Assembly: GCA_000165345.1 (NCBI GenBank)
Contig: CM000431.1
Coordinates: 640,001-704,000, forward strand
Length of the DNA stretch: 64,000 nucleotides
Direction: 5' to 3'
Below, in pieces: positions 2,934 through 47,034 of the stretch (positions are counted from its first letter, which is position 1; each line of letters starts with the position of its first letter). The notes under the pieces were generated by a model. The model saw only the letters and a list, made by a program, of their open reading frames with translations, made no database searches and was not told the DNA's origin. The position numbers and the translations under genes are program-made.

Positions 2934-4100
2934 ATGAAAAGTTTTTTTAGAAAGAGTTTAAATCCTATTCATAATACAAAGAGTGAAGCTTCACAGCAAA
3001 TAAAATCAAGTTTGGTTGCAATAAACTATCTTAGTATTAATATTGACCTCTCGAGCATTATTTTTTCAAGTGGCTACACACCATCTAGACTTGATATTTT
3101 AAATAAAGGTTTTCTTTTACTTTATTACACCGACCCCTACACTGCCACTATGGCAGCATGGTTCTTCGAAATTCAAGGAATTCCTGCTGCCACGATTTCA
3201 GGGTGGTCTCTTATTCGCATATGCGGCCCTATTACATTAGATGAAGTTACAGAAATTATATCATTCAAACCTTTTGCAATTACCTTCTTTAATTATAAGG
3301 TAAAGTATTCATGGATTGCTGTTCATGGAATTCACACAAAACAACTATTATTAAAATACATTAAGAATCAAAATTGGAATATTGTTGAGGCACTCCACAA
3401 CAGAAACTTTCAAGATGTTGTTGAAGTATTGGAAATATTCAATAATGAAGAAGTCCCAAATTGCTATAATAAATTGGAATACATGTTTGTAAGCCTTCTT
3501 GAAAAAAAAAGTTATAATATAGATAATCCGGATCAATATAGGTTACATCAAAAATTAGTTCTACTATCTAGATGTTCTAGACTAACTAATGAAATTTACT
3601 TAAATGGAGTATATATGAAAAATACCCATGAAAGTTACCAATCTCCTATTAAGAGGGATTTGCTACTTGCAATTAGAAAGTATCTATATAGTATTCCAAT
3701 TTTTACAGAAGCTTGTATATCTAAAAGCTCTCTCAAATCATTGAAAACAGAAGAATGGTGCTTAGGACTAGATGAAAAACACATATATAGAAGAGAGAAC
3801 GGGTGTTTTAATGACTGCATAGAAACAAACAGCAATTACAAAGCGCAAAGCAATCATTCTGTAAGCAGAAATAAGTTACTTGAACGCATGTTAAGGGTTA
3901 TATTGATAGAATTAATTACCCATTTCAGAGTAAAGTATAATAATAGCAAATACCCAAATATCACTGAAGTGAGTGAATTATGGAAAATTAGGTTTGGAAT
4001 AGAAGTTGACATTATTCAATTGTTCAAAATGGCGGGACTTTATGAAGAAATTAAAAATATTGTCGAAGCTACTAAAGAAATTAAAATAACAAGAGATTGA
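2934..4100 (+). CDS. Hypothetical protein, 388 aa.
   Basis: Long ORF with an ATG at 2934; no recognisable domain. Confidence 0.6.
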   Translation: MKSFFRKSLNPIHNTKSEASQQIKSSLVAINYLSINIDLSSIIFSSGYTPSRLDILNKGFLLLYYTDPYTATMAAWFFEIQGIPAATISGWSLIRICGPITLDEVTEIISFKPFAITFFNYKVKYSWIAVHGIHTKQLLLKYIKNQNWNIVEALHNRNFQDVVEVLEIFNNEEVPNCYNKLEYMFVSLLEKKSYNIDNPDQYRLHQKLVLLSRCSRLTNEIYLNGVYMKNTHESYQSPIKRDLLLAIRKYLYSIPIFTEACISKSSLKSLKTEEWCLGLDEKHIYRRENGCFNDCIETNSNYKAQSNHSVSRNKLLERMLRVILIELITHFRVKYNNSKYPNITEVSELWKIRFGIEVDIIQLFKMAGLYEEIKNIVEATKEIKITRD

Positions 4101-38875: not shown

Positions 38876-39442
38876 CTACTTGTTATTTATTTCTTCTTGA
38901 GATTCCTTTACGCATTTCTGTACCATTTTATAGTATTCTAATTTGTTCTCAATATAAAGTTGTGCAGCTTCTGCATTTGCAGGAGAATTAGGGTTCGGGT
39001 CATTTAATAAGGATTGAATACAGGTAAGAATCGAGCATACATCAAGAACAGGGCTCCAGTGCTGTTGCAAAATATCTAGGCATATATTTCCATTGTTATA
39101 TATATTCGGATGGAAAACTCTTGTCACGAATCTTATCTTAGGAGCTTTATTGGGGTATTCTTCAGTAAATCTAATATCAAGTTTGAATATTCCACCTTCC
39201 CATACTGTTCCCTCAGGTCTATAATAATTAATTCATGATAAAATATCTAAAGTTGAGAAACTAACCCAAAAATTACCGCATCCCAATGTAACATCTCATC
39301 GTCAATAGGTGTTCCGCAGATACCATGCGGTGGATTATTTGAAAGTTTTGCGAAGTCTCTTAGAAGCCTACGTTTCTATCAAGTATAAAGTGAAAAATAG
39401 TTAATTAAATATAATAAATAAACCTACGGCTTGAAAAGACAT
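38876..39442 (-). CDS. RAD6: Ubiquitin-conjugating enzyme E2 Rad6/UBC2 (UBE2A/B ortholog). Three exons: complement(join(38876..39218,39266..39375,39428..39442)).
   Basis: The spliced product MSFQA|[37 protein letters not shown]|[60 protein letters not shown]...[14 protein letters not shown] aligns residue-for-residue with Rad6 (MSTPARRRLMRDFKRM...[20 protein letters not shown]...). Introns are 52 nt (GTAGGT...GATAG) and 47 nt (GTTAGT...TTATAG). The ORF track shows only the last exon, from a GTG. Confidence 0.85.
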
Positions 39443-39507
39443 ATTTTATCACAAATTTATTACTAATAATTCCGCGGCTCTGTAACAGTTTTCATATTTT
39501 CATAAAA

Positions 39508-40029
39508 ATGGATTCACTCTTTTCAAGAATAAATATTATCTTTTGCTCATTTGTAATTTCTTTGGCATGCTGTGCAGTTGGGAACTTTGCATCTTCATTT
39601 ATTTACAAAGAACTCCCAATAGGAGATACTGAATTACACTCCATACTTGACTTAGGAATTAGCCCATACTTAAGGAATGATCAAGCAAATATTGCGCTCA
39701 ACATTAATACAAACCTTTCTAATTCTCTGAACTGGAATACAAACCAAATCTTCACATTTATATATGTAAGCTATAAAAATAAACACCAAAATAATTACGT
39801 AACAGTTTGGGATGATATTTTTTCAAAAAAAAAAAACAAAACAAGTTTTTCAATGAAAGGAGTGATAAATAAATATCCAATTAGGGATATCGGGAGAAAC
39901 CTTAGAAGCAAAAGTATAAATCTTAATATCGCATTCTGCTACATGCCAATTGTGGGTAGCATTAAATATCACCATTTAAAAGTGTCGACTGAAAAAAAAT
40001 TGCCAGTGAATTATTTTCAATATAAATGA
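39508..40029 (+). CDS. Signal peptidase complex subunit 3 (SPCS3/Spc3).
   Basis: N-terminal signal anchor MDSLFSRINIIFCSFVISLA (compare SPC22/23 MNTVLSRANSLFAF) and VTVWDDIF (compare VVLWDKIV); the size, 173 aa, fits. Confidence 0.55.
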   Translation: MDSLFSRINIIFCSFVISLACCAVGNFASSFIYKELPIGDTELHSILDLGISPYLRNDQANIALNINTNLSNSLNWNTNQIFTFIYVSYKNKHQNNYVTVWDDIFSKKKNKTSFSMKGVINKYPIRDIGRNLRSKSINLNIAFCYMPIVGSIKYHHLKVSTEKKLPVNYFQYK

Positions 40030-40104
40030 TTGTATTAACAATAAATAGTCAATATTACTTCTAAATTACAAAACTTATCAATAATTTCCTAGGCTATTAA
40101 GTGG

Positions 40105-42000
40105 TTATTTTTTAGTAAATACTTTGATTTCTTTCTTGAAAAAATAGATTGAAGCTGATAAAATAAAAATATAGAACATATTTTTCAATTTTAGTACTGG
40201 GGAAACTAACTGGAAGAAAGAAGGCTCATCAGAACTATTAAAAAGGCAATTCTTGTATAGGTTATCGTTGTTATAATTTGAACAAATTTGAGGTAGTCTA
40301 CTCCAGTAAATTTCCTCTTCAAAAACTTTTTGATAAACGTTGGTTAATGTTTTGAGAATAGAAAACCTATCACCGTCAAAATCTATCAGTAAAAATTCTG
40401 AAGCAGCTACGTTGCGTGAAAGCTCCAAAAAGCCTTTAATCTTAGACATGCTAGGAATTCCCCTAACTTTGCTCAATAGAGCAACTTGAACAGGCTGGAT
40501 AAATAATTCTCCAATATCTTCGTCGGCCTCACTATCAATCATATTACTTGCATTTCCAGAATTCCTTCTAATATTGATATATTTTTGACGAGAAATATCT
40601 AGCGCTCTAACAATTTCTTGATTTTGAGCCATTCCATCTAATCTATCATGTATAATAACTAAACAAATTATTCTATTTAAACTGTTAGACTCGCATAGAT
40701 TCTTAGCATTACTGCTATCAATAAAAGGTACATAAATCTGTTGCGTATAAAGCAGCGACTGTTCTAGTTTCTGTACTAAGGAGGTGGGCCTATTGATAAA
40801 GTTAAATAATTGATCATCTATTTGCCTGGTTTGCAAAACATCTTCATTTGAAAAGCCCCCAAGTGGAATGATAATCTCTGGAGTTAAGTCTGAATCCTTA
40901 AATATGTGCGGAAGCGCAATTAAGTATGGTTTATCATATTCTATTCCCCATTTATAAAGTATGCTATTTTTTTTGTTATTTTGATAATATGCTAACTCGA
41001 AAGTTGAGCTCCATCTTAATGCAAATGAACGAATTAATAATGTTGGTGAAGGTTTGTTAGAAAGAATTAATATTTTTGGCCTATACAAATTATTCTTTTT
41101 TAACCATCCAGTTAACGATTTCTCTGAATTTAATAGACCCAAAGTCATCGGAAAAGAGTTGGAGAGAAATTCCAAGAAAGATTCTAAACTTGGATCATAA
41201 ATTTTGGAATACATTTCGTATTGGTATCCACTTGTGATAATAAAAATTGCAGGAAATACCTTTACGCTTAATGGTAGTTTTTTAAGTAATGAATTTTCTT
41301 TTTTGGCGTGAATTCTTCCAAATTTGTAATATTTCCCCATTTCTTCAATAGATTCCTCCCAAATAGAAGAAAAATGGTGACAAAGTTCATCATGATCCGT
41401 ATAAACCTGTATAACCCATGAATTAGTTTTCTGAAGCATTACCAAGTTGTCAAAGTTATCGGATGTTAAGGTAACTGCAGCTGAAGGAATTATCTCAATC
41501 TCACCGCCTTGAGTAGTATCGTAAACTTGTCTTTTTTCATTATCACCCAGTATTTCATATGCTTTCGAAATATCTCTAAACTTCTCCAAGCACGGTTCAC
41601 AATCTGGATTTTTGTCAGGATGCCATACCAAGCTAAGCTTTCTGAATGCCTTTCTGATTTCTAAGTTAGATGATTTCTTTGTTACCCCCAAAACTTCGTA
41701 GTAATTCTTTTGGTTTTCATTTTTGTTTAGCTTCCCACTAATGCTGTAAAATTCTTCCCCTGCTCTTAAAATAATTGTGGAGATCAAAATACAAAGAATT
41801 AACAATAATATAGATAGATTTATTATTGTCTCCTTAAGTTCCGCCCATTTGAAACTTTGAAGGTAACTCAGTAAAGAATTTTGTGATGATTGAAACTTTT
41901 TCAAGTTATTCTCTGTGGTGCCATTAGTGTTCCCAAAATTAGCATTTCTCTGCAGTACAGAATTTAATTCTTGCTTATTGCTGCTTTTTTTTTTACCCAT
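40105..42000 (-). CDS. Membrane-anchored DnaJ (J-domain) protein with a thioredoxin-like luminal region (DNAJC10/C16-like).
   Basis: N-terminal TM helix, then J domain NYYEVLGVTKKSSNLEIRKAFRKLSLVWHPDKNPD...AYEILGDNEKRQVYD. Confidence 0.7.
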   Translation of the reverse strand: MGKKKSSNKQELNSVLQRNANFGNTNGTTENNLKKFQSSQNSLLSYLQSFKWAELKETIINLSILLLILCILISTIILRAGEEFYSISGKLNKNENQKNYYEVLGVTKKSSNLEIRKAFRKLSLVWHPDKNPDCEPCLEKFRDISKAYEILGDNEKRQVYDTTQGGEIEIIPSAAVTLTSDNFDNLVMLQKTNSWVIQVYTDHDELCHHFSSIWEESIEEMGKYYKFGRIHAKKENSLLKKLPLSVKVFPAIFIITSGYQYEMYSKIYDPSLESFLEFLSNSFPMTLGLLNSEKSLTGWLKKNNLYRPKILILSNKPSPTLLIRSFALRWSSTFELAYYQNNKKNSILYKWGIEYDKPYLIALPHIFKDSDLTPEIIIPLGGFSNEDVLQTRQIDDQLFNFINRPTSLVQKLEQSLLYTQQIYVPFIDSSNAKNLCESNSLNRIICLVIIHDRLDGMAQNQEIVRALDISRQKYINIRRNSGNASNMIDSEADEDIGELFIQPVQVALLSKVRGIPSMSKIKGFLELSRNVAASEFLLIDFDGDRFSILKTLTNVYQKVFEEEIYWSRLPQICSNYNNDNLYKNCLFNSSDEPSFFQLVSPVLKLKNMFYIFILSASIYFFKKEIKVFTKK

Positions 42001-42065
42001 TTTTGAAAAAAAAAACTTTCACAAGACGATAAATACTAATACCGCAAGATAATTTATTTTCAAAA

Positions 42066-42783
42066 ATGGAGGAAAATAATCAAATATCGCTTTCCCTTTT
42101 AACTTTTTTAAGATATGAGTATTTAAATTATTGTATAAACAAATCATCTGAATTAATTTCAGATGAAAAGAATTTTCAGACTGTAAAACACTCTAAAAAA
42201 CTGTCAATAAGTGGATTACAAGTTTGCAAAGACTCACTAATAAGAGAACTTTCTATGTCAACTCTCGAAGAATCTGGATTTTATTTGGGAATTAGATTAG
42301 TTGAAAGGTTAGTGACACGGTTATTCACTGCGCAGCAACACATACTTTAGATTATCAGTATTCCGCCACAGAATTTATGATCAAAAAGAAATAATTAAAT
42401 TTATTTGCAAAGACTTATGGAACTTCATATTTCTCAAACAAGCAGATAGGCTCAAGACAAACAGAAGAGTAAGTTAATATTCTAATTAATGTTTTGAAAC
42501 ACGTTTTCAGGGTGGTTACGCAATATTAGATAACGAGTTAATATGGCTTTCAAAACTGCCAAGCTCGATTAGCGCAAACTCTAGAAAAGTGCAATTTGAA
42601 CCAGCAATCAACGTCATTATTGTATGTGGAATTATCAGAGGAGCATTACAGCATTTAGGGCTTACGTGCTCAGTAGCAGCAGAAGTCAGCAAGATTCCTT
42701 CTTGTAAGTTATTGTCGCGTATATTTTATTTTAATTCAGTTTTAGGCACGTTTCAAATACGTGTATATGCCCCATCAAGGTAA
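42066..42783 (+). CDS. TRAPP complex subunit TRAPPC6/Trs33 (Bet3 family). Four exons: join(42066..42307,42351..42468,42511..42703,42746..42783).
   Basis: Spliced product: ...GFYLGIRLVE|RLSVFRHRIYDQKEIIKFICKDLWNFIFLKQADRLKTNRR|GGYAILDNELIWL...VIIVCGIIRGALQHLGLTCSVAAEVSKIPS|CTFQIRVYAPSR*. It tracks human TRAPPC6B (MGFRVGQGLIERF...MKFICKDFW...NLRTNHQGIYVLQDN...FTCGLIRGGLSNLGIKSIVTAEVSSMPACKFQVMIQKL). Introns of 43, 42 and 42 nt (GTTAGT, GTAAGT, GTAAGT). The first acceptor could instead be 42371 (64-nt intron). The ORF track shows exons 1 and 3 as two unrelated ORFs. Confidence 0.75.
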
Positions 42784-42881
42784 AATAGTAAGAAAATATT
42801 CAAATTTACTCTTTGTAAAATATTGTGTAATATTACATTAATTGCAATTCATATGCCCCACATTTTCATGTGGAAGGTGTG

Positions 42882-42889
42882 TGGCGCCA
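42882..42889. promoter_or_regulatory. Palindromic TGGCGCCA (E2F-like) about 120 bp upstream of the CENP-C-like gene.
   Basis: gtgTGGCGCCAttcaacg. Confidence 0.35.
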
Positions 42890-43008
42890 TTCAACGAGCG
42901 GTTAACAAAAATTTATACTAACAAATTAATTATTTCTTGATTCAATAGAGAAATAATGATATATTTTTTAAATAAATTACTCATTGATACACAAGATTGT
43001 ACGTTTCA

Positions 43009-45633
43009 ATGCGTATAGCTGGAATAAAGAGTAACTCAATTACGCCTTTGAGGCAGCCATTTGAAACATTTGTTACAGGGAATGATGGAACGTATAAGAG
43101 TATTGATAGATGGAGGTCAAAATATTACTCTTCCAACGATGATTATTTGTCTCCAACGTTCTTGGATGACTCTTGCTCGTTATCATCATCTCCAATATTT
43201 CATGATGAAACTCCAAATACCACCATAGGTACGCCGGTTACCTCTCCGCGTAAAAAGAGTAGTAGTACAAGAAAAGTCAGAGTTTCAATTGACTCTGTTC
43301 TCACTAATTCTAATGAAAATACACCTACAAACAACCTAAATTATAAAAGGCCACCTTCAATTGGTACTCCAATACTCACCCCTCCATCAGCAAAAACTGC
43401 TGTTCATGACAATGAGGGATTTTTGATACCTGACCTACCAGGGACATCAAGGACGAGGAATTTTAGGAGCAGTCACCGGAACGATATCTCAAGAAGCTGT
43501 AATAACTACTCATCTGCAGATCCCGTTCACATTACAATGCCGCCAAGACTAGGACTGCCATCACAAACTCCATTGAATATGAAAGACCAATATAGAAAGT
43601 CCCCTCTTCCTGTTGTATCAGCAAACTTGGATTACAGAACGGTTTACATGGGTGACAAACTGGCAGCAAGGGCAAAAGATTTAAGGAGGAATTATACTGT
43701 ATCTCTTCGTGAAGCTTCTCCCTTTTTTCGTAATAATTATGAGTATGATCATTCTTATTCAGAAAACCCTACGATTCATGAGGATGACCTTATTTTGCAT
43801 CGCGGGGAAATACTTAGAAACAAATACTCAAAGTTACACAGGGCTCGGCCCAGTACAAACTGTGTGGCTAGTGATCAAAGGAGTAGATCGCTTTCTTCTT
43901 ATTACTCAGAAAGCGCATCTAGAAAAAATTTCTCTCCAGGATATAGAAGTAACTCCCTATATAATAACTATCGCCACTCGATTTTCGGGAATTTTAGGTG
44001 GAATAACAAGAGACGAAGATTAGGAAGCTATATTGCCAGCCAAAATGATATCTTACAACAACATATTCAAATAATCGACAAATCTTTAGATAGATCATCC
44101 AATGGTGATTTTGCTCTTTTTGAAGGTGGAATGCTTGACTCTCCAGATAGTAATAAAAATTGCACGCATGAATCAAGCAGTCCGATAAAAAGTAGATATA
44201 TCAATTCACAAGAACTTAACTTTAATTTAGAAAAAAGTTCAGTAAAAGCCATCTCAAGTCCAAGCAATGAGGTTAAATCAAGTAATATAAACTCTCGTGA
44301 AGCAAACAACTCGGAGGCCATAAACTACACAACGGACAATATGAAGAACTTAGAAGTGCCTTCCGATTCGGGAAAGCTTACTTTCAAACATTTTGACTCA
44401 AATGAGCCAGACGATCCTGCACAACCCAATGATCAAGATGTTTCATTTAATTCAGTTTTTGGCTCTTCGCAAGCCAACGAATATGGAGAATCTGACATTC
44501 AAGACCTATCTGTTGTTGTAATGAGTAGTTCATCAAAAAAGTGTTTACCCTCTGCAATTTCAAATTCAAGTTTGGATGAAATTGTGCCACATCCGATTCC
44601 CAACTCGTCTGAAATATCCAATAGAGATATATATGGAGCACCAAATGAAATTGAATCATTTACCAATGACGATAGTCACTCTAATGAGAATAAGCCTGAA
44701 AAAAGTAAAAATGTAAAAAACAAAAGGACCAGAGCTGACAGCCAAAAAAAACACGCTAGAGGTAAGACAATAAATAGAAGGCGTCACATTGACTATCATA
44801 TACCGATAGATCAAGTCAAACCACCACCTGGAATAGGTACAAAACCATTGTCTGATGAGCCTTCAAACTTTGAGAACTCATCCAGAAGATATCCCAAGAG
44901 ACTCAGGACAGCTCCGCTTAAATGGTACCTGGGTGAAAGGCTGGAATACCATCGAGATGAAAAGAACGAACTTGGCTACACAATTGCCGCTATACACAAG
45001 GTTGCAAACCCAAAGATGCTTCCTAATGAGCGTGGGAGTATCCATCCCAACAGTGATATTTCTACATACCCAGCTTCTTGCAAACCTAATACTGATGAAC
45101 TTGAATTTCACAAAAAAAGTAACCGTGACGTTTGTTCCGACAAATCAAAACCTAGAGCTGAGAATACAAATATATCAAAGAAGGTCAAGTCTAAAGTAAA
45201 GCGTGTTTCTGGAAACGATCAAGAAAAAAAATCTAATGCTGTTATTCTTAAAGATTATGAAACAAATGAAGAATTTTCAATGATATCTGTATTTGACAGA
45301 AATACTCTATGCTGGGCTGATGTTGAGTACACTGCAGGTAAACCATATAGTGTTGCTCTTTCTTTTATATCTAGTCAAGCAACTTGCTGTGAAATATGCC
45401 TTCCTCCTCTAACTGAGAAAGGGCTCGATGAAAGTCAAGATAATTACATACTAGGGCATGTATATATGGCCCCGGATAGTAAATCTTTACAAATAATGAT
45501 AAGTGATAACAATGTTTACAACATTGGTGTTGGAGACTGGTTCCTAATACCTGACAATACGAACTACAATTTCAGCAATACTTCTGATCATTCAGAAATT
45601 TATATTTCTTTGTATGTTATTAAGGATAGTTAG
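43009..45633 (+). CDS. Ser-rich kinetochore protein CENP-C/Mif2-like (CENP-C motif plus C-terminal cupin fold).
   Basis: RRYPKRLRTAPLKWYLGERLEYHRDE matches the CENP-C motif (R.S.R..P...YW.GE...Y). The last ~120 aa (CWADVEYTAGKPYSVALSFISS...GDWFLIPDNTNYNFSN...IYISLYVI) look like the Mif2/CENP-C cupin. The track starts at TTG 42997; first ATG at 43009. Confidence 0.55.
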   Translation: MRIAGIKSNSITPLRQPFETFVTGNDGTYKSIDRWRSKYYSSNDDYLSPTFLDDSCSLSSSPIFHDETPNTTIGTPVTSPRKKSSSTRKVRVSIDSVLTNSNENTPTNNLNYKRPPSIGTPILTPPSAKTAVHDNEGFLIPDLPGTSRTRNFRSSHRNDISRSCNNYSSADPVHITMPPRLGLPSQTPLNMKDQYRKSPLPVVSANLDYRTVYMGDKLAARAKDLRRNYTVSLREASPFFRNNYEYDHSYSENPTIHEDDLILHRGEILRNKYSKLHRARPSTNCVASDQRSRSLSSYYSESASRKNFSPGYRSNSLYNNYRHSIFGNFRWNNKRRRLGSYIASQNDILQQHIQIIDKSLDRSSNGDFALFEGGMLDSPDSNKNCTHESSSPIKSRYINSQELNFNLEKSSVKAISSPSNEVKSSNINSREANNSEAINYTTDNMKNLEVPSDSGKLTFKHFDSNEPDDPAQPNDQDVSFNSVFGSSQANEYGESDIQDLSVVVMSSSSKKCLPSAISNSSLDEIVPHPIPNSSEISNRDIYGAPNEIESFTNDDSHSNENKPEKSKNVKNKRTRADSQKKHARGKTINRRRHIDYHIPIDQVKPPPGIGTKPLSDEPSNFENSSRRYPKRLRTAPLKWYLGERLEYHRDEKNELGYTIAAIHKVANPKMLPNERGSIHPNSDISTYPASCKPNTDELEFHKKSNRDVCSDKSKPRAENTNISKKVKSKVKRVSGNDQEKKSNAVILKDYETNEEFSMISVFDRNTLCWADVEYTAGKPYSVALSFISSQATCCEICLPPLTEKGLDESQDNYILGHVYMAPDSKSLQIMISDNNVYNIGVGDWFLIPDNTNYNFSNTSDHSEIYISLYVIKDS

Positions 45634-45656
45634 TTATGATAATTTATCTTTTCCCT

Positions 45657-47034
45657 CTATATCCACGTTCTTCTGAGTATTTTACTTGGTAAATAAGTAT
45701 TCACCAAATAATCACTAGAAATTGATTGGAATGCTTCTAATTCGCATTTATAATTATGTTCATACATCAGTTTGCATTGCCGACAAAGTATCTCACATTC
45801 CTATTTGTGTTAATTGTTACTTGTACTTAATGTTCGTGCTTACCTTTATTGCTGGATCTTCTATTAGTGATTTCAAGGTGGATCTATCTTTTTCGGATAG
45901 AATAACCCTTGTCTACAAAAAATTAACTTAACTTTTATAGCATTATAACTTACATCGGATGGAATGAGTTCTGTATCTTCAAAATGTATTCCCAAATAAT
46001 ATATACTTGGACAAGCTAAAATATATAAAACAAAATTATGGAGTAAAGTTTATTGTCATACCTGCCAATTGTGATTCAAAATTGCTTGAACCTCGTACGT
46101 ATGTTAGGTATATATTGATGCCATGTGGATCAAAGTCCCCTAAATATAAAGCCTATCAGAACTTATAAGAGGTAATAAAAATAAGTGAGAACTTACTGTA
46201 ATTCCAGATTTACATATAATGTCGGAGACTAATTTCCTAGTTGAAATATCTGGAAAGCCTTTACCTACTTTGAATTATTTATAATAAAAACATTTTTTTA
46301 CATACCCGTAATTACCAAACAAGGAATCCTATTATAAATCTCTCTCTCCATTAAATACTGAAATATCGAAGCCTTTTCAATAACTAATAAATATTTCACA
46401 TTTGTCTTTATTATATATTTACTGTCATTTGGATCAAATATATCTGTGATCGTTGCTCCTGACACTCCAAGTTCTTCAACGTCTAAAAAATCTGAATTCT
46501 AAGAATAATTTGAAAATATAAAAATGTGAACCCTTACTTTATAAATTAGTTTTATTCTTCCGCCAATCATTCCTTTTGGAGAAGGGAATAATCCAAATGA
46601 TATTCTTGGTATCTGCAGGATTTCTGAAAAGTCTAAATTTCAGGTTTATTAATTATCATTATTTTGTTTACTTACTTTGCACTATTCTATTTACTTGGGA
46701 TTGACTCTATAAAGGGTGATTTATTATAAATATTTGTAGTTTAGTACTTACCTTAAAAAGCCAACTATTATGATAGTATAACTCTCTTAATGTTAATTTT
46801 CTACCTCTTTTCTGTGCACTATGTAAAACGTTCGCAATTGAAGTAACTAATTAAATTGTTTAAGTAAATTATTTAAAAAACCAACTTACTCTTTGCAATA
46901 TTAATTACATCATTTTTTCTTCTTGATGAGCCAATAATATATTGATCGCATTGTAAAGATTCAATCCAATTTAGTGTATTAAAAGATGTAGATTTCCCCA
47001 AATTAAATAAAACAATATCTTCAATAAAATTCAT
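45657..47034 (-). CDS. SPO11: Meiotic recombination protein SPO11 (topoisomerase VI subunit A family). Ten exons: complement(join(45657..45800,45844..45912,45954..46015,46062..46152,46197..46264,46306..46498,46538..46632,46676..46706,46752..46846,46890..47034)); 330 aa.
   Basis: Hand-spliced on the minus strand. Exon 2 carries the catalytic-Tyr motif QKRGRKLTLRELYYHNS. Exons 5-6 carry the TOPRIM core KYLLVIEKASIFQYLMEREIYNRIPCLVITG|KGFPDISTRKLV. Exon 7 carries YLGDFDPHGINIYLTYVRGS. Exons 8-10 end ...LIPSD|TRVILSEKDRSTLKSLIEDPAIK|...KCELEAFQSISSDYLVNTYLPSKILRRTWI*, matching the mouse SPO11 C-terminus (KAEIEALSSLSSDYLSRVYLPNKLRFGGWI) as I remember it. There are nine introns of 39-46 nt with donors GTAAGT x5, GTAAGG, GTATGT, GTATGA and GTAAGC, and YAG acceptors; phases are consistent and total 993 nt. 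The ORF track shows nothing here except a 69-aa antisense fragment. Confidence 0.85.

What the first reader, a model, noticed from the sequence alone, without database searches (positions are those of the whole stretch)
42066..42783. Two unrelated-looking small ORFs are exons of one TRAPPC6/Trs33 gene
ORFs 42066..42350 and 42589..42783 each contain half of a Bet3-family fold (GFYLGIRLVE..., ...VCGIIRGALQHLGLTCSVAAEV). A 97-118 nt middle exon (IIKFICKDLW...LKTNRR) and a 38-nt terminal exon (CTFQIRVYAPSR) complete a protein collinear with human TRAPPC6B as I remember it. The three introns are 42-43 nt. The first acceptor is ambiguous: 42350 is preferred because it reproduces the human spacing, with 42371 as the alternative.
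Basis: seen in the sequence. Interest (0 to 1): 0.6.

Follow-up and report, generated by a model that had tools for sequence, protein, structure and literature searches.

The report
Cryptosporidium TRAPPC6/Trs33 gene, four exons

Summary
Joining 42066-42307, 42351-42468, 42511-42703 and 42746-42783 removes three GT..AG introns of 43, 42 and 42 nt. The result is a 196-aa protein that matches Pfam TRAPP (PF04051) end to end at 116.4 bits (cut-off 27). The two ORFs alone score 19.3 and 27.0 bits. Its best solved relatives are Drosophila TRAPPC6 (4.5e-27) and human TRAPPC6B (1.3e-24); Trs31 and Bet3 score far worse. The same splice sites give intact 195-196-aa proteins in six Cryptosporidium species. 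This settles the ambiguous first acceptor in favour of 42350. It also shows that intron 3 must be spliced, because retaining it gives stops or frameshifts in three species. The finding is not new. The 196-aa protein is identical to deposited C. parvum proteins named TRAPPC6B (for example QOY42622.1). A 2013 survey lists the gene as C. parvum Trs33, cgd3_2700. The only added value is curation: the older 210-aa Iowa II model reads through intron 3, and the orthologue models deposited for five other species look wrong. No transcript data could be examined.

The parts
42066..42307 (+). Exon 1 (242 nt; residues 1-80 plus two bases of R81). It encodes helices 1 and 2 of the Bet3-type fold. The ATG at 42066 is the first in-frame ATG after the stop at 42030.
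   Evidence: The ATG column is invariant in the six species. Predicted helices span residues 11-38 and 48-82.
42308..42350 (+). Intron 1 (43 nt, GTTAGT...TTTAG, phase 2). Its terminal TAG is also the stop codon of the unspliced 94-aa ORF.
   Evidence: GT and AG are conserved at homologous positions in six species; the length is 43-64 nt and is not a multiple of 3 in any of them.
42351..42468 (+). Exon 2 (118 nt; residues 81-120: RLSVFRHRIYDQKEIIKFICKDLWNFIFLKQADRLKTNRR). The in-frame alternative acceptor CAG at 42369-42371 lies inside it.
   Evidence: Model A scores 116.4 bits and model B 107.6 bits. The late AG is absent in three of the six species.
42469..42510 (+). Intron 2 (42 nt, GTAAGT...TTTCAG, phase 0). 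It carries in-frame stops if retained.
   Evidence: frame-1 read-through gives RRVS*YSN*. Conserved GT..AG, length 42-63 nt in the six species.
42511..42703 (+). Exon 3 (193 nt; residues 121-184 plus one base of C185). It contains the most conserved block, CGIIRGALQHLGLTCSVAAEV.
42704..42745 (+). Intron 3 (42 nt, GTAAGT...TTTTAG, phase 1). It is in frame and stop-free in C. parvum, which is why the older 210-aa models read through it.
   Evidence: Retention gives stops or a frameshift in C. ryanae, C. ubiquitum and C. xiaoi. The stop-free state is within chance. The retained segment is predicted disordered.
42746..42783 (+). Exon 4 (38 nt including the TAA stop; residues 185-196, CTFQIRVYAPSR). 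It encodes the last beta strand of the fold.
   Evidence: aligns with human ACKFQVMI. Predicted strand at residues 184-191. With exon 4 joined the Pfam match extends to profile position 153; without it the match ends at 140.

Best explanation
Window 42066-42783 (+) is the Cryptosporidium parvum chromosome 3 gene cgd3_2700. It has four exons and three very short introns, and encodes the 196-aa TRAPPC6/Trs33 subunit of the TRAPP complex.

Shown here: the exon-intron structure, its conservation across the genus, membership of the Bet3-type TRAPP family, and closest similarity to the TRAPPC6/Trs33 subfamily.

Inferred from established knowledge of TRAPP in yeast and animals: the protein pairs with one of the two Bet3/TRAPPC3 copies at one end of the TRAPP core. 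The assembled complex acts as the nucleotide-exchange factor for Rab1/Ypt1 and, as TRAPPII, for Rab11/Ypt31/32 in ER-Golgi and Golgi traffic. Trs33 mainly serves as a structural and assembly subunit.
For: - Pfam: the spliced protein matches PF04051 TRAPP at 116.4 bits (cut-off 27) over the whole profile. Either ORF alone reaches only 19.3 or 27.0 bits.
- Solved structures by sequence: Drosophila TRAPPC6 4.5e-27, human TRAPPC6B 1.3e-24, TRAPPC6A 3.6e-21, yeast Trs33 9.5e-13, against Trs31 1.5e-3 and TRAPPC3 0.2.
- Exact identity to deposited C. parvum proteins named TRAPPC6B: QOY42622.1, KAL5369621.1, WKS77016.1, WRK31507.1.
- Window 39066-45783 is 99.97% identical to C. parvum CM109963.1 680491-687208.
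- The homologous splice sites give intact 195-196-aa ORFs in six species. Pairwise identity is 0.70 in exons and 0.35 in intron interiors, and 0.77/0.88/0.45 at codon positions 1/2/3.
- The AlphaFold2 model (pLDDT 77.7, pTM 0.75) shows the helix and strand order of a Bet3-type fold. Its best PDB matches are human TPC6B and TRAPPC6A.
- Klinger et al. 2013 (PMC3785458, supplementary file 4) list cgd3_2700 as C. parvum Trs33/TRAPP6 and cgd7_1820 as the separate Bet3.
Against: - No transcript or junction reads were available. The splicing rests on consensus signals, homology and cross-species conservation.
- No assembled transcript contig carrying the spliced protein was found in the public collection; all four contigs that carry it are chromosomes over 1 Mb.
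- The biochemical role is inferred from orthology only.
- Klinger et al. did not find Bet5 and Trs85 in C. parvum, so the parasite's TRAPP complex may differ in composition from the yeast and animal models.
- Minor use of the late acceptor at 42371, or some intron 3 retention, cannot be excluded in C. parvum.
Confidence: 0.95

Rival explanations
1. The older reference model is correct: intron 3 (42704-42745) is not removed. The protein is then 210 aa, with KLLSRIFYFNSVLG inserted before the last strand, as in the C. parvum Iowa II, C. hominis UdeA01 and C. tyzzeri models.
For: The 42 nt are in frame and stop-free in C. parvum, C. felis and C. muris. The 210-aa form is what several deposited annotations carry, and it is the length listed for cgd3_2700 in 2013. 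It still passes Pfam at 109.8 bits.
Against: - In C. ryanae and C. xiaoi the homologous segment is 44 nt (a frameshift) with stops, and in C. ubiquitum it contains a stop. All three nevertheless keep the downstream TFQIRV[YF]APSK in the spliced frame.
- The segment has full GTAAGT..TTTTAG signals and its sequence is not conserved.
- The stop-free state is expected by chance in 28-47% of shuffles.
- The Pfam match of the 210-aa form stops at profile position 140 of 154.
- In the structure model the retained residues 183-194 have pLDDT below 50, and mean pLDDT falls from 77.7 to 72.3.
- Human and fly TRAPPC6 align without a gap to the spliced form.
Confidence: 0.04
2. The first intron ends at 42371, not 42350, or both acceptors are used.
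For: CCACAG|AAT at 42366-42374 is a plausible in-frame acceptor. The deposited C. felis model uses the homologous late site. Model B still scores 107.6 bits in Pfam.
Against: - The late AG is absent in C. ryanae, C. muris and C. xiaoi, whereas the early AG is present in all six species.
- The 21 nt encode a conserved RLS[VL][FE]R[HNS]R, with counterparts in Vitrella (RLTASRSR) and human (RFTKDTAR).
- Model A scores 8.8 bits higher.
- All current C. parvum depositions use 42350, and the 189-aa sequence is not in the collection.
Confidence: 0.05
3. The two ORFs are separate small genes or chance ORFs, as in the 105-aa 'hypothetical protein' of C. hominis TU502 and the prokaryote-style calls on raw assemblies.
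For: Such calls exist: XP_666526.1 in C. hominis TU502, and a 94-aa ORF without any Pfam hit called on Logan contigs.
Against: Each ORF alone is only a fragment of one domain (19.3 and 27.0 bits against 116.4 bits when joined). The joined protein is conserved in the genus and beyond.
Confidence: 0.01

Closest known systems
[quoted passage not shown]
   Same: Identical protein sequence, and so the same four exons and three introns. Same locus between the DnaJ/thioredoxin gene and the 874-aa gene.
   Different: Nothing.
C. parvum Iowa II older model EAZ51443.1 / XP_001388115.1 (210 aa, 'partial'), with the C. hominis UdeA01 and C. tyzzeri equivalents
   Same: Same gene, and introns 1 and 2 are spliced identically.
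   Different: These models read through intron 3, adding 14 residues (KLLSRIFYFNSVLG). Comparative data argue against that.
Human TRAPPC6B/TRAPPC6A and Drosophila TRAPPC6 (PDB 2cfh, 2bjn, 2j3t, 7b6d)
   Same: Same Bet3-type fold and subfamily. Foldseek gives 34-35% identity over about 130-136 aligned positions, collinear and without gaps at the exon junctions. The blocks KFICKD.W, LxTN and CG(I/L)IRG(A/G)L are conserved.
   Different: The Cryptosporidium protein is about 40 residues longer. The extra residues (about 25-60) lie between helices 1 and 2 and are in part modelled with low confidence. Partner binding has not been tested.
Yeast Trs33 (PDB 7e2c_B and others)
   Same: Same subfamily (E 9.5e-13). 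By the literature it is the core TRAPP subunit that pairs with Bet3 and helps TRAPPII assembly (PMC3785458).
   Different: Yeast Trs33 is 268 aa with its own insertions and is much less similar than the animal proteins.

Membership tests
Bet3-type TRAPP component family (Pfam PF04051) | Significant full-length match to the family profile, above the curated cut-off | tested here: met
   116.4 bits against a cut-off of 27, E 1.2e-33, profile positions 2-153 of 154.
Bet3-type TRAPP component family (Pfam PF04051) | Alpha/beta fold with long N-terminal helices packed on a four-stranded antiparallel sheet | tested here: met
   AlphaFold2 model with pLDDT 77.7 and pTM 0.75: helices 11-38, 48-82, 92-108 and 151-168; strands 114-117, 122-129, 173-181 and 184-191. 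Of the Foldseek PDB matches, 57 have E <= 0.001, and all 50 listed are TRAPP Bet3-family entries.
TRAPPC6/Trs33 subfamily (as opposed to Bet3/TRAPPC3 or Trs31/TRAPPC5) | Closer to TRAPPC6/Trs33 than to the other two Bet3-family paralogues | tested here: met
   Sequence: TRAPPC6 proteins 4.5e-27 to 3.6e-21 and Trs33 9.5e-13, against Trs31 1.5e-3 and TRAPPC3 0.2. Fold: the top seven matches are TPC6B/TRAPPC6A chains.
TRAPPC6/Trs33 subfamily (as opposed to Bet3/TRAPPC3 or Trs31/TRAPPC5) | The same genome has separate Bet3 and Trs31 genes, so this one is the Trs33 orthologue and not a sole generalist | not tested
   Taken from the literature only. Klinger et al. 2013 list cgd7_1820 as the C. parvum Bet3 and report Trs31 in all taxa. 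Neither gene lies in this window.
TRAPPC6/Trs33 subfamily (as opposed to Bet3/TRAPPC3 or Trs31/TRAPPC5) | Heterodimer with Bet3 and incorporation into the TRAPP core with Rab GEF activity | not testable with these tools
   This needs co-purification or reconstitution. It is inferred from orthology.
Spliceosomal-intron-containing Cryptosporidium gene | GT..AG introns removed from the mRNA | tested here: inconclusive
   Consensus signals, frame restoration and six-species conservation all support splicing. No transcript data were reachable. The published annotations that contain this model used RNA-seq and cDNA evidence in general, but evidence specific to this gene was not seen.

The most novel reading that the evidence does not exclude
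In the C. parvum lineage, the in-frame, stop-free intron 3 or the in-frame late acceptor at 42371 might be used as regulated alternative splicing. This would yield TRAPPC6 isoforms with an altered terminal hairpin or a shortened helix 2-helix 3 loop. More modestly, the locus is a compact example of how short in-frame introns propagate wrong gene models across Cryptosporidium annotations.
Probability: 0.07. Interest if true: 0.2.

Novelty: already known. Interest (0 to 1): 0.07.

Why it matters
It matters little beyond curation. The gene and its exact exon structure are already in public annotation, and its family assignment was published in 2013.

The useful by-product is comparative evidence that the 196-aa model should replace the 210-aa model still attached to C. 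parvum Iowa II, C. hominis UdeA01 and C. tyzzeri. The evidence also suggests that the orthologue models deposited for five other species are wrong:
- C. ubiquitum: exon 2 skipped
- C. felis: late acceptor and intron 3 retained
- C. muris: intron 3 retained
- C. xiaoi: wrong start, mis-spliced around exon 2, and frameshifted after intron 3
- C. meleagridis: fused to the downstream gene

The case also shows that a reader without tools can reconstruct a multi-exon gene correctly from sequence alone.

Tried and rejected
- **Transcript-level evidence.** I did exact look-ups of the 196-aa protein and of the 94-aa exon-1 ORF in public assemblies. The 196-aa protein sits only on chromosomes over 1 Mb. 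All 24 contigs read for the 94-aa ORF were collapsed to a single place, a 68-kb Logan contig that carries the unspliced locus. No spliced or partly spliced transcript contig turned up.
- **Selection on intron 3 retention.** I tested whether the stop-free, in-frame state of intron 3 in three species indicates selection for retention. Shuffles keeping the splice signals give stop-free fractions of 0.28-0.47 for those introns, so it is consistent with chance.
- **Late-acceptor model.** Its 189-aa sequence is absent from the 15-billion-protein collection, and it is disfavoured by conservation.
- **Downstream neighbour.** I compared the C-terminal 377 aa of the downstream gene with PDB sequences to confirm a CENP-C assignment. 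There were no hits.
- **Bacterial or phage tools** (promoter and terminator scans, defence-system libraries) were not used, because the window is clearly a eukaryotic (apicomplexan) chromosome.

Full report
**What is in the sequence.** The window has about 30% G+C and carries long uninterrupted ORFs. I built the proposed gene models explicitly.

| Part | Coordinates | Length | Notes |
|---|---|---|---|
| Exon 1 | 42066-42307 | 242 nt | |
| Intron 1 | 42308-42350 | 43 nt | GTTAGT..TTTAG |
| Exon 2 | 42351-42468 | 118 nt | |
| Intron 2 | 42469-42510 | 42 nt | GTAAGT..TTTCAG |
| Exon 3 | 42511-42703 | 193 nt | |
| Intron 3 | 42704-42745 | 42 nt | GTAAGT..TTTTAG |
| Exon 4 | 42746-42783 | 38 nt | includes the TAA stop |

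Model A, with the first acceptor at 42350, gives a 591-nt CDS and a 196-aa protein. Model B, with the acceptor at 42371, gives 570 nt and 189 aa. Two details refine the description. The stop of ORF 1 (TAG at 42348-42350) is the acceptor of intron 1. ORF 2 is the 3' part of exon 3 read through the in-frame, stop-free intron 3 into exon 4.

The splice signals are not a chance pattern. Only 11 GTWAGT(27-60 nt)TNYAG candidates occur on the + strand of the whole 64-kb window, and three of them are these introns. The expected number in 718 nt is 0.12, and none of 2000 shuffles of the region gave three or more.

**Family assignment.** Against Pfam, model A matches PF04051 (TRAPP component) at 116.4 bits (cut-off 27, E 1.2e-33) over profile positions 2-153 of 154. 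Model B scores 107.6 bits, ORF 1 alone 19.3 bits (below the cut-off) and ORF 2 alone 27.0 bits. Each ORF is therefore a fragment of one domain that only the spliced product completes.

Against the sequences of solved structures, the best matches are Drosophila TRAPPC6 (7b6d_B, 4.5e-27), human TRAPPC6B (2cfh_C, 1.3e-24), TRAPPC6A (2j3t_B, 3.6e-21) and yeast Trs33 (7e2c_B, 9.5e-13). Trs31 reaches only 1.5e-3 and TRAPPC3/Bet3 0.2. The alignments to fly and human TRAPPC6 run without a gap across the first and third exon junctions of model A.

An AlphaFold2 model of the 196-aa protein (17-sequence alignment, pLDDT 77.7, pTM 0.75) has helices at 11-38, 48-82, 92-108 and 151-168. Its strands are at 114-117, 122-129, 173-181 and 184-191. 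Its best PDB fold matches are human TPC6B and TRAPPC6A, followed by yeast TRAPP-complex chains, TRAPPC5/Trs31 and Bet3.

[quoted passage not shown] The 189-aa model B is not in the collection. Window 39066-45783 is 99.97% identical to CM109963.1 680491-687208, a 1.106-Mb C. parvum chromosome.

Klinger et al. 2013 (PMC3785458) report Trs33 in all apicomplexans they sampled. [quoted passage not shown] Bet3 is a separate gene, cgd7_1820. The gene, its family and its exact structure are therefore already known.

**Which model is right.** Deposited models of this gene disagree.

| Source | Deposited model |
|---|---|
| C. hominis TU502 | Only the exon-1 ORF, as a 105-aa hypothetical protein |
| C. 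parvum Iowa II (EAZ51443.1), C. hominis UdeA01, C. tyzzeri | 210 aa; intron 3 read through, adding KLLSRIFYFNSVLG |
| Newer C. parvum and C. hominis annotations, and C. ryanae | 196 aa |
| C. ubiquitum | Exon 2 skipped (163 aa) |
| C. felis | Late first acceptor, intron 3 retained |
| C. muris | Intron 3 retained |
| C. xiaoi | Garbled around exon 2 and after intron 3 |
| C. meleagridis | Exon 3 joined to the downstream gene (1060 aa) |

I fetched the genomic loci of C. ryanae, C. ubiquitum, C. felis, C. muris and C. xiaoi. All are syntenic, with the gene lying between a DnaJ gene and an 850-1100-aa gene. I aligned them with the window. The main results, are:

- **Conserved splice sites.** GT and AG sit at homologous positions for all three introns in all six species. 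Applying those sites gives an intact 195-196-aa ORF in each species.
- **Coding signature.** Mean pairwise identity is 0.70 in exons against 0.35 in intron interiors. At codon positions 1/2/3 it is 0.77/0.88/0.45.
- **First acceptor.** The early AG is present in all six species. The late CAG is missing in C. ryanae, C. muris and C. xiaoi. The 21 nt between the two sites encode RLS[VL][FE]R[HNS]R in every species, with counterparts in Vitrella and human.
- **Intron 3.** It is 44 nt with stops in C. ryanae and C. xiaoi, and 42 nt with a stop in C. ubiquitum. Those species can reach the conserved TFQIRV[YF]APSK only by splicing.

The stop-free state of intron 3 in C. parvum, C. felis and C. muris is within chance. 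Shuffles that keep the splice signals are stop-free in 28-47% of cases.

The 210-aa form loses the last 13 profile positions in Pfam (109.8 bits, match ends at 140/154). In its structure model the retained residues 183-194 have pLDDT below 50, inside what is otherwise a tight terminal hairpin, and mean pLDDT is 72.3 against 77.7.

**Mechanism.** Shown here: a conserved four-exon gene that encodes a complete Bet3-type fold of the TRAPPC6/Trs33 subfamily. Inferred from established work on yeast and animal TRAPP (summarised in PMC3785458): the protein pairs with Bet3 at one end of the TRAPP core. The complex activates Rab1/Ypt1 and, as TRAPPII, Rab11/Ypt31/32, and Trs33 contributes to TRAPPII assembly. 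Klinger et al. did not find Bet5 or Trs85 in C. parvum, so the parasite's complex may be reduced. Nothing in this window bears on that.

**Limits.** No RNA-seq or cDNA data could be examined. The only public contigs found carrying these sequences are genomic. The annotation papers say their models used RNA-seq and cDNA evidence in general. They also say that about 11% of C. parvum genes have introns, with a mean intron length of about 99 nt. I did not see evidence specific to this gene. Minor use of the late acceptor, or some intron 3 retention, cannot be excluded in C. parvum.

**Verdict.** Novelty: already known (cgd3_2700). Interest is low. [quoted passage not shown]

Noticed in passing
window 43009-45633 (+), the ORF listed as 42997..45633: The downstream 874-aa gene has no Pfam family in the public annotation. 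Here it gives a weak hit to the Mif2/CENP-C cupin domain (PF11699, 19.6 bits, below the cut-off of 29, residues 800-865). By eye it also has a CENP-C-motif-like stretch, RRYPKRLRTAPLKWYLGERLEY, so it may be the Cryptosporidium CENP-C homologue. A PDB sequence search of its C-terminal 377 aa found nothing.
   Followed up: partly
window 42001-42065: Only 65 nt separate the start codon of the minus-strand DnaJ/thioredoxin-domain gene (40105-42000) from the TRAPPC6 ATG at 42066. The gap is 60-75 nt in C. ryanae, C. ubiquitum and C. felis and 154 nt in C. muris. This is a very compact divergent promoter region, so the 5' UTRs must be tiny or overlapping.
   Followed up: no
L003 (C. ubiquitum), L004 (C. 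felis), L005 (C. muris), L006 (C. xiaoi), each from position 3001; P0024 (C. meleagridis): The deposited orthologue models look wrong. They skip exon 2 (C. ubiquitum), use the late acceptor and retain intron 3 (C. felis), retain intron 3 (C. muris), are frameshifted and garbled (C. xiaoi), or are fused to the downstream CENP-C-like gene through a false junction from the exon-3 donor (C. meleagridis, 1060 aa). Applying the conserved splice sites gives clean 195-196-aa proteins in the four species whose loci were aligned.
   Followed up: yes
window 40105-42000 (-): The upstream neighbour is a 631-aa protein with a DnaJ domain (82.6 bits) followed by a thioredoxin-like domain (24.1 bits, just above its cut-off). 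It is possibly an ER DnaJ/PDI-type (ERdj5-like) protein.
   Followed up: no
L007 (Logan DRR729241 contig 46) and the other Logan contigs carrying this locus: Prokaryote-style gene calling on public raw-read assemblies of Cryptosporidium reports only the 94-aa exon-1 ORF, with no Pfam hit. The index lists it in 45 blocks of the collection. This shows how short-intron eukaryotic genes become orphan 'proteins' in large metagenomic protein collections.
   Followed up: partly
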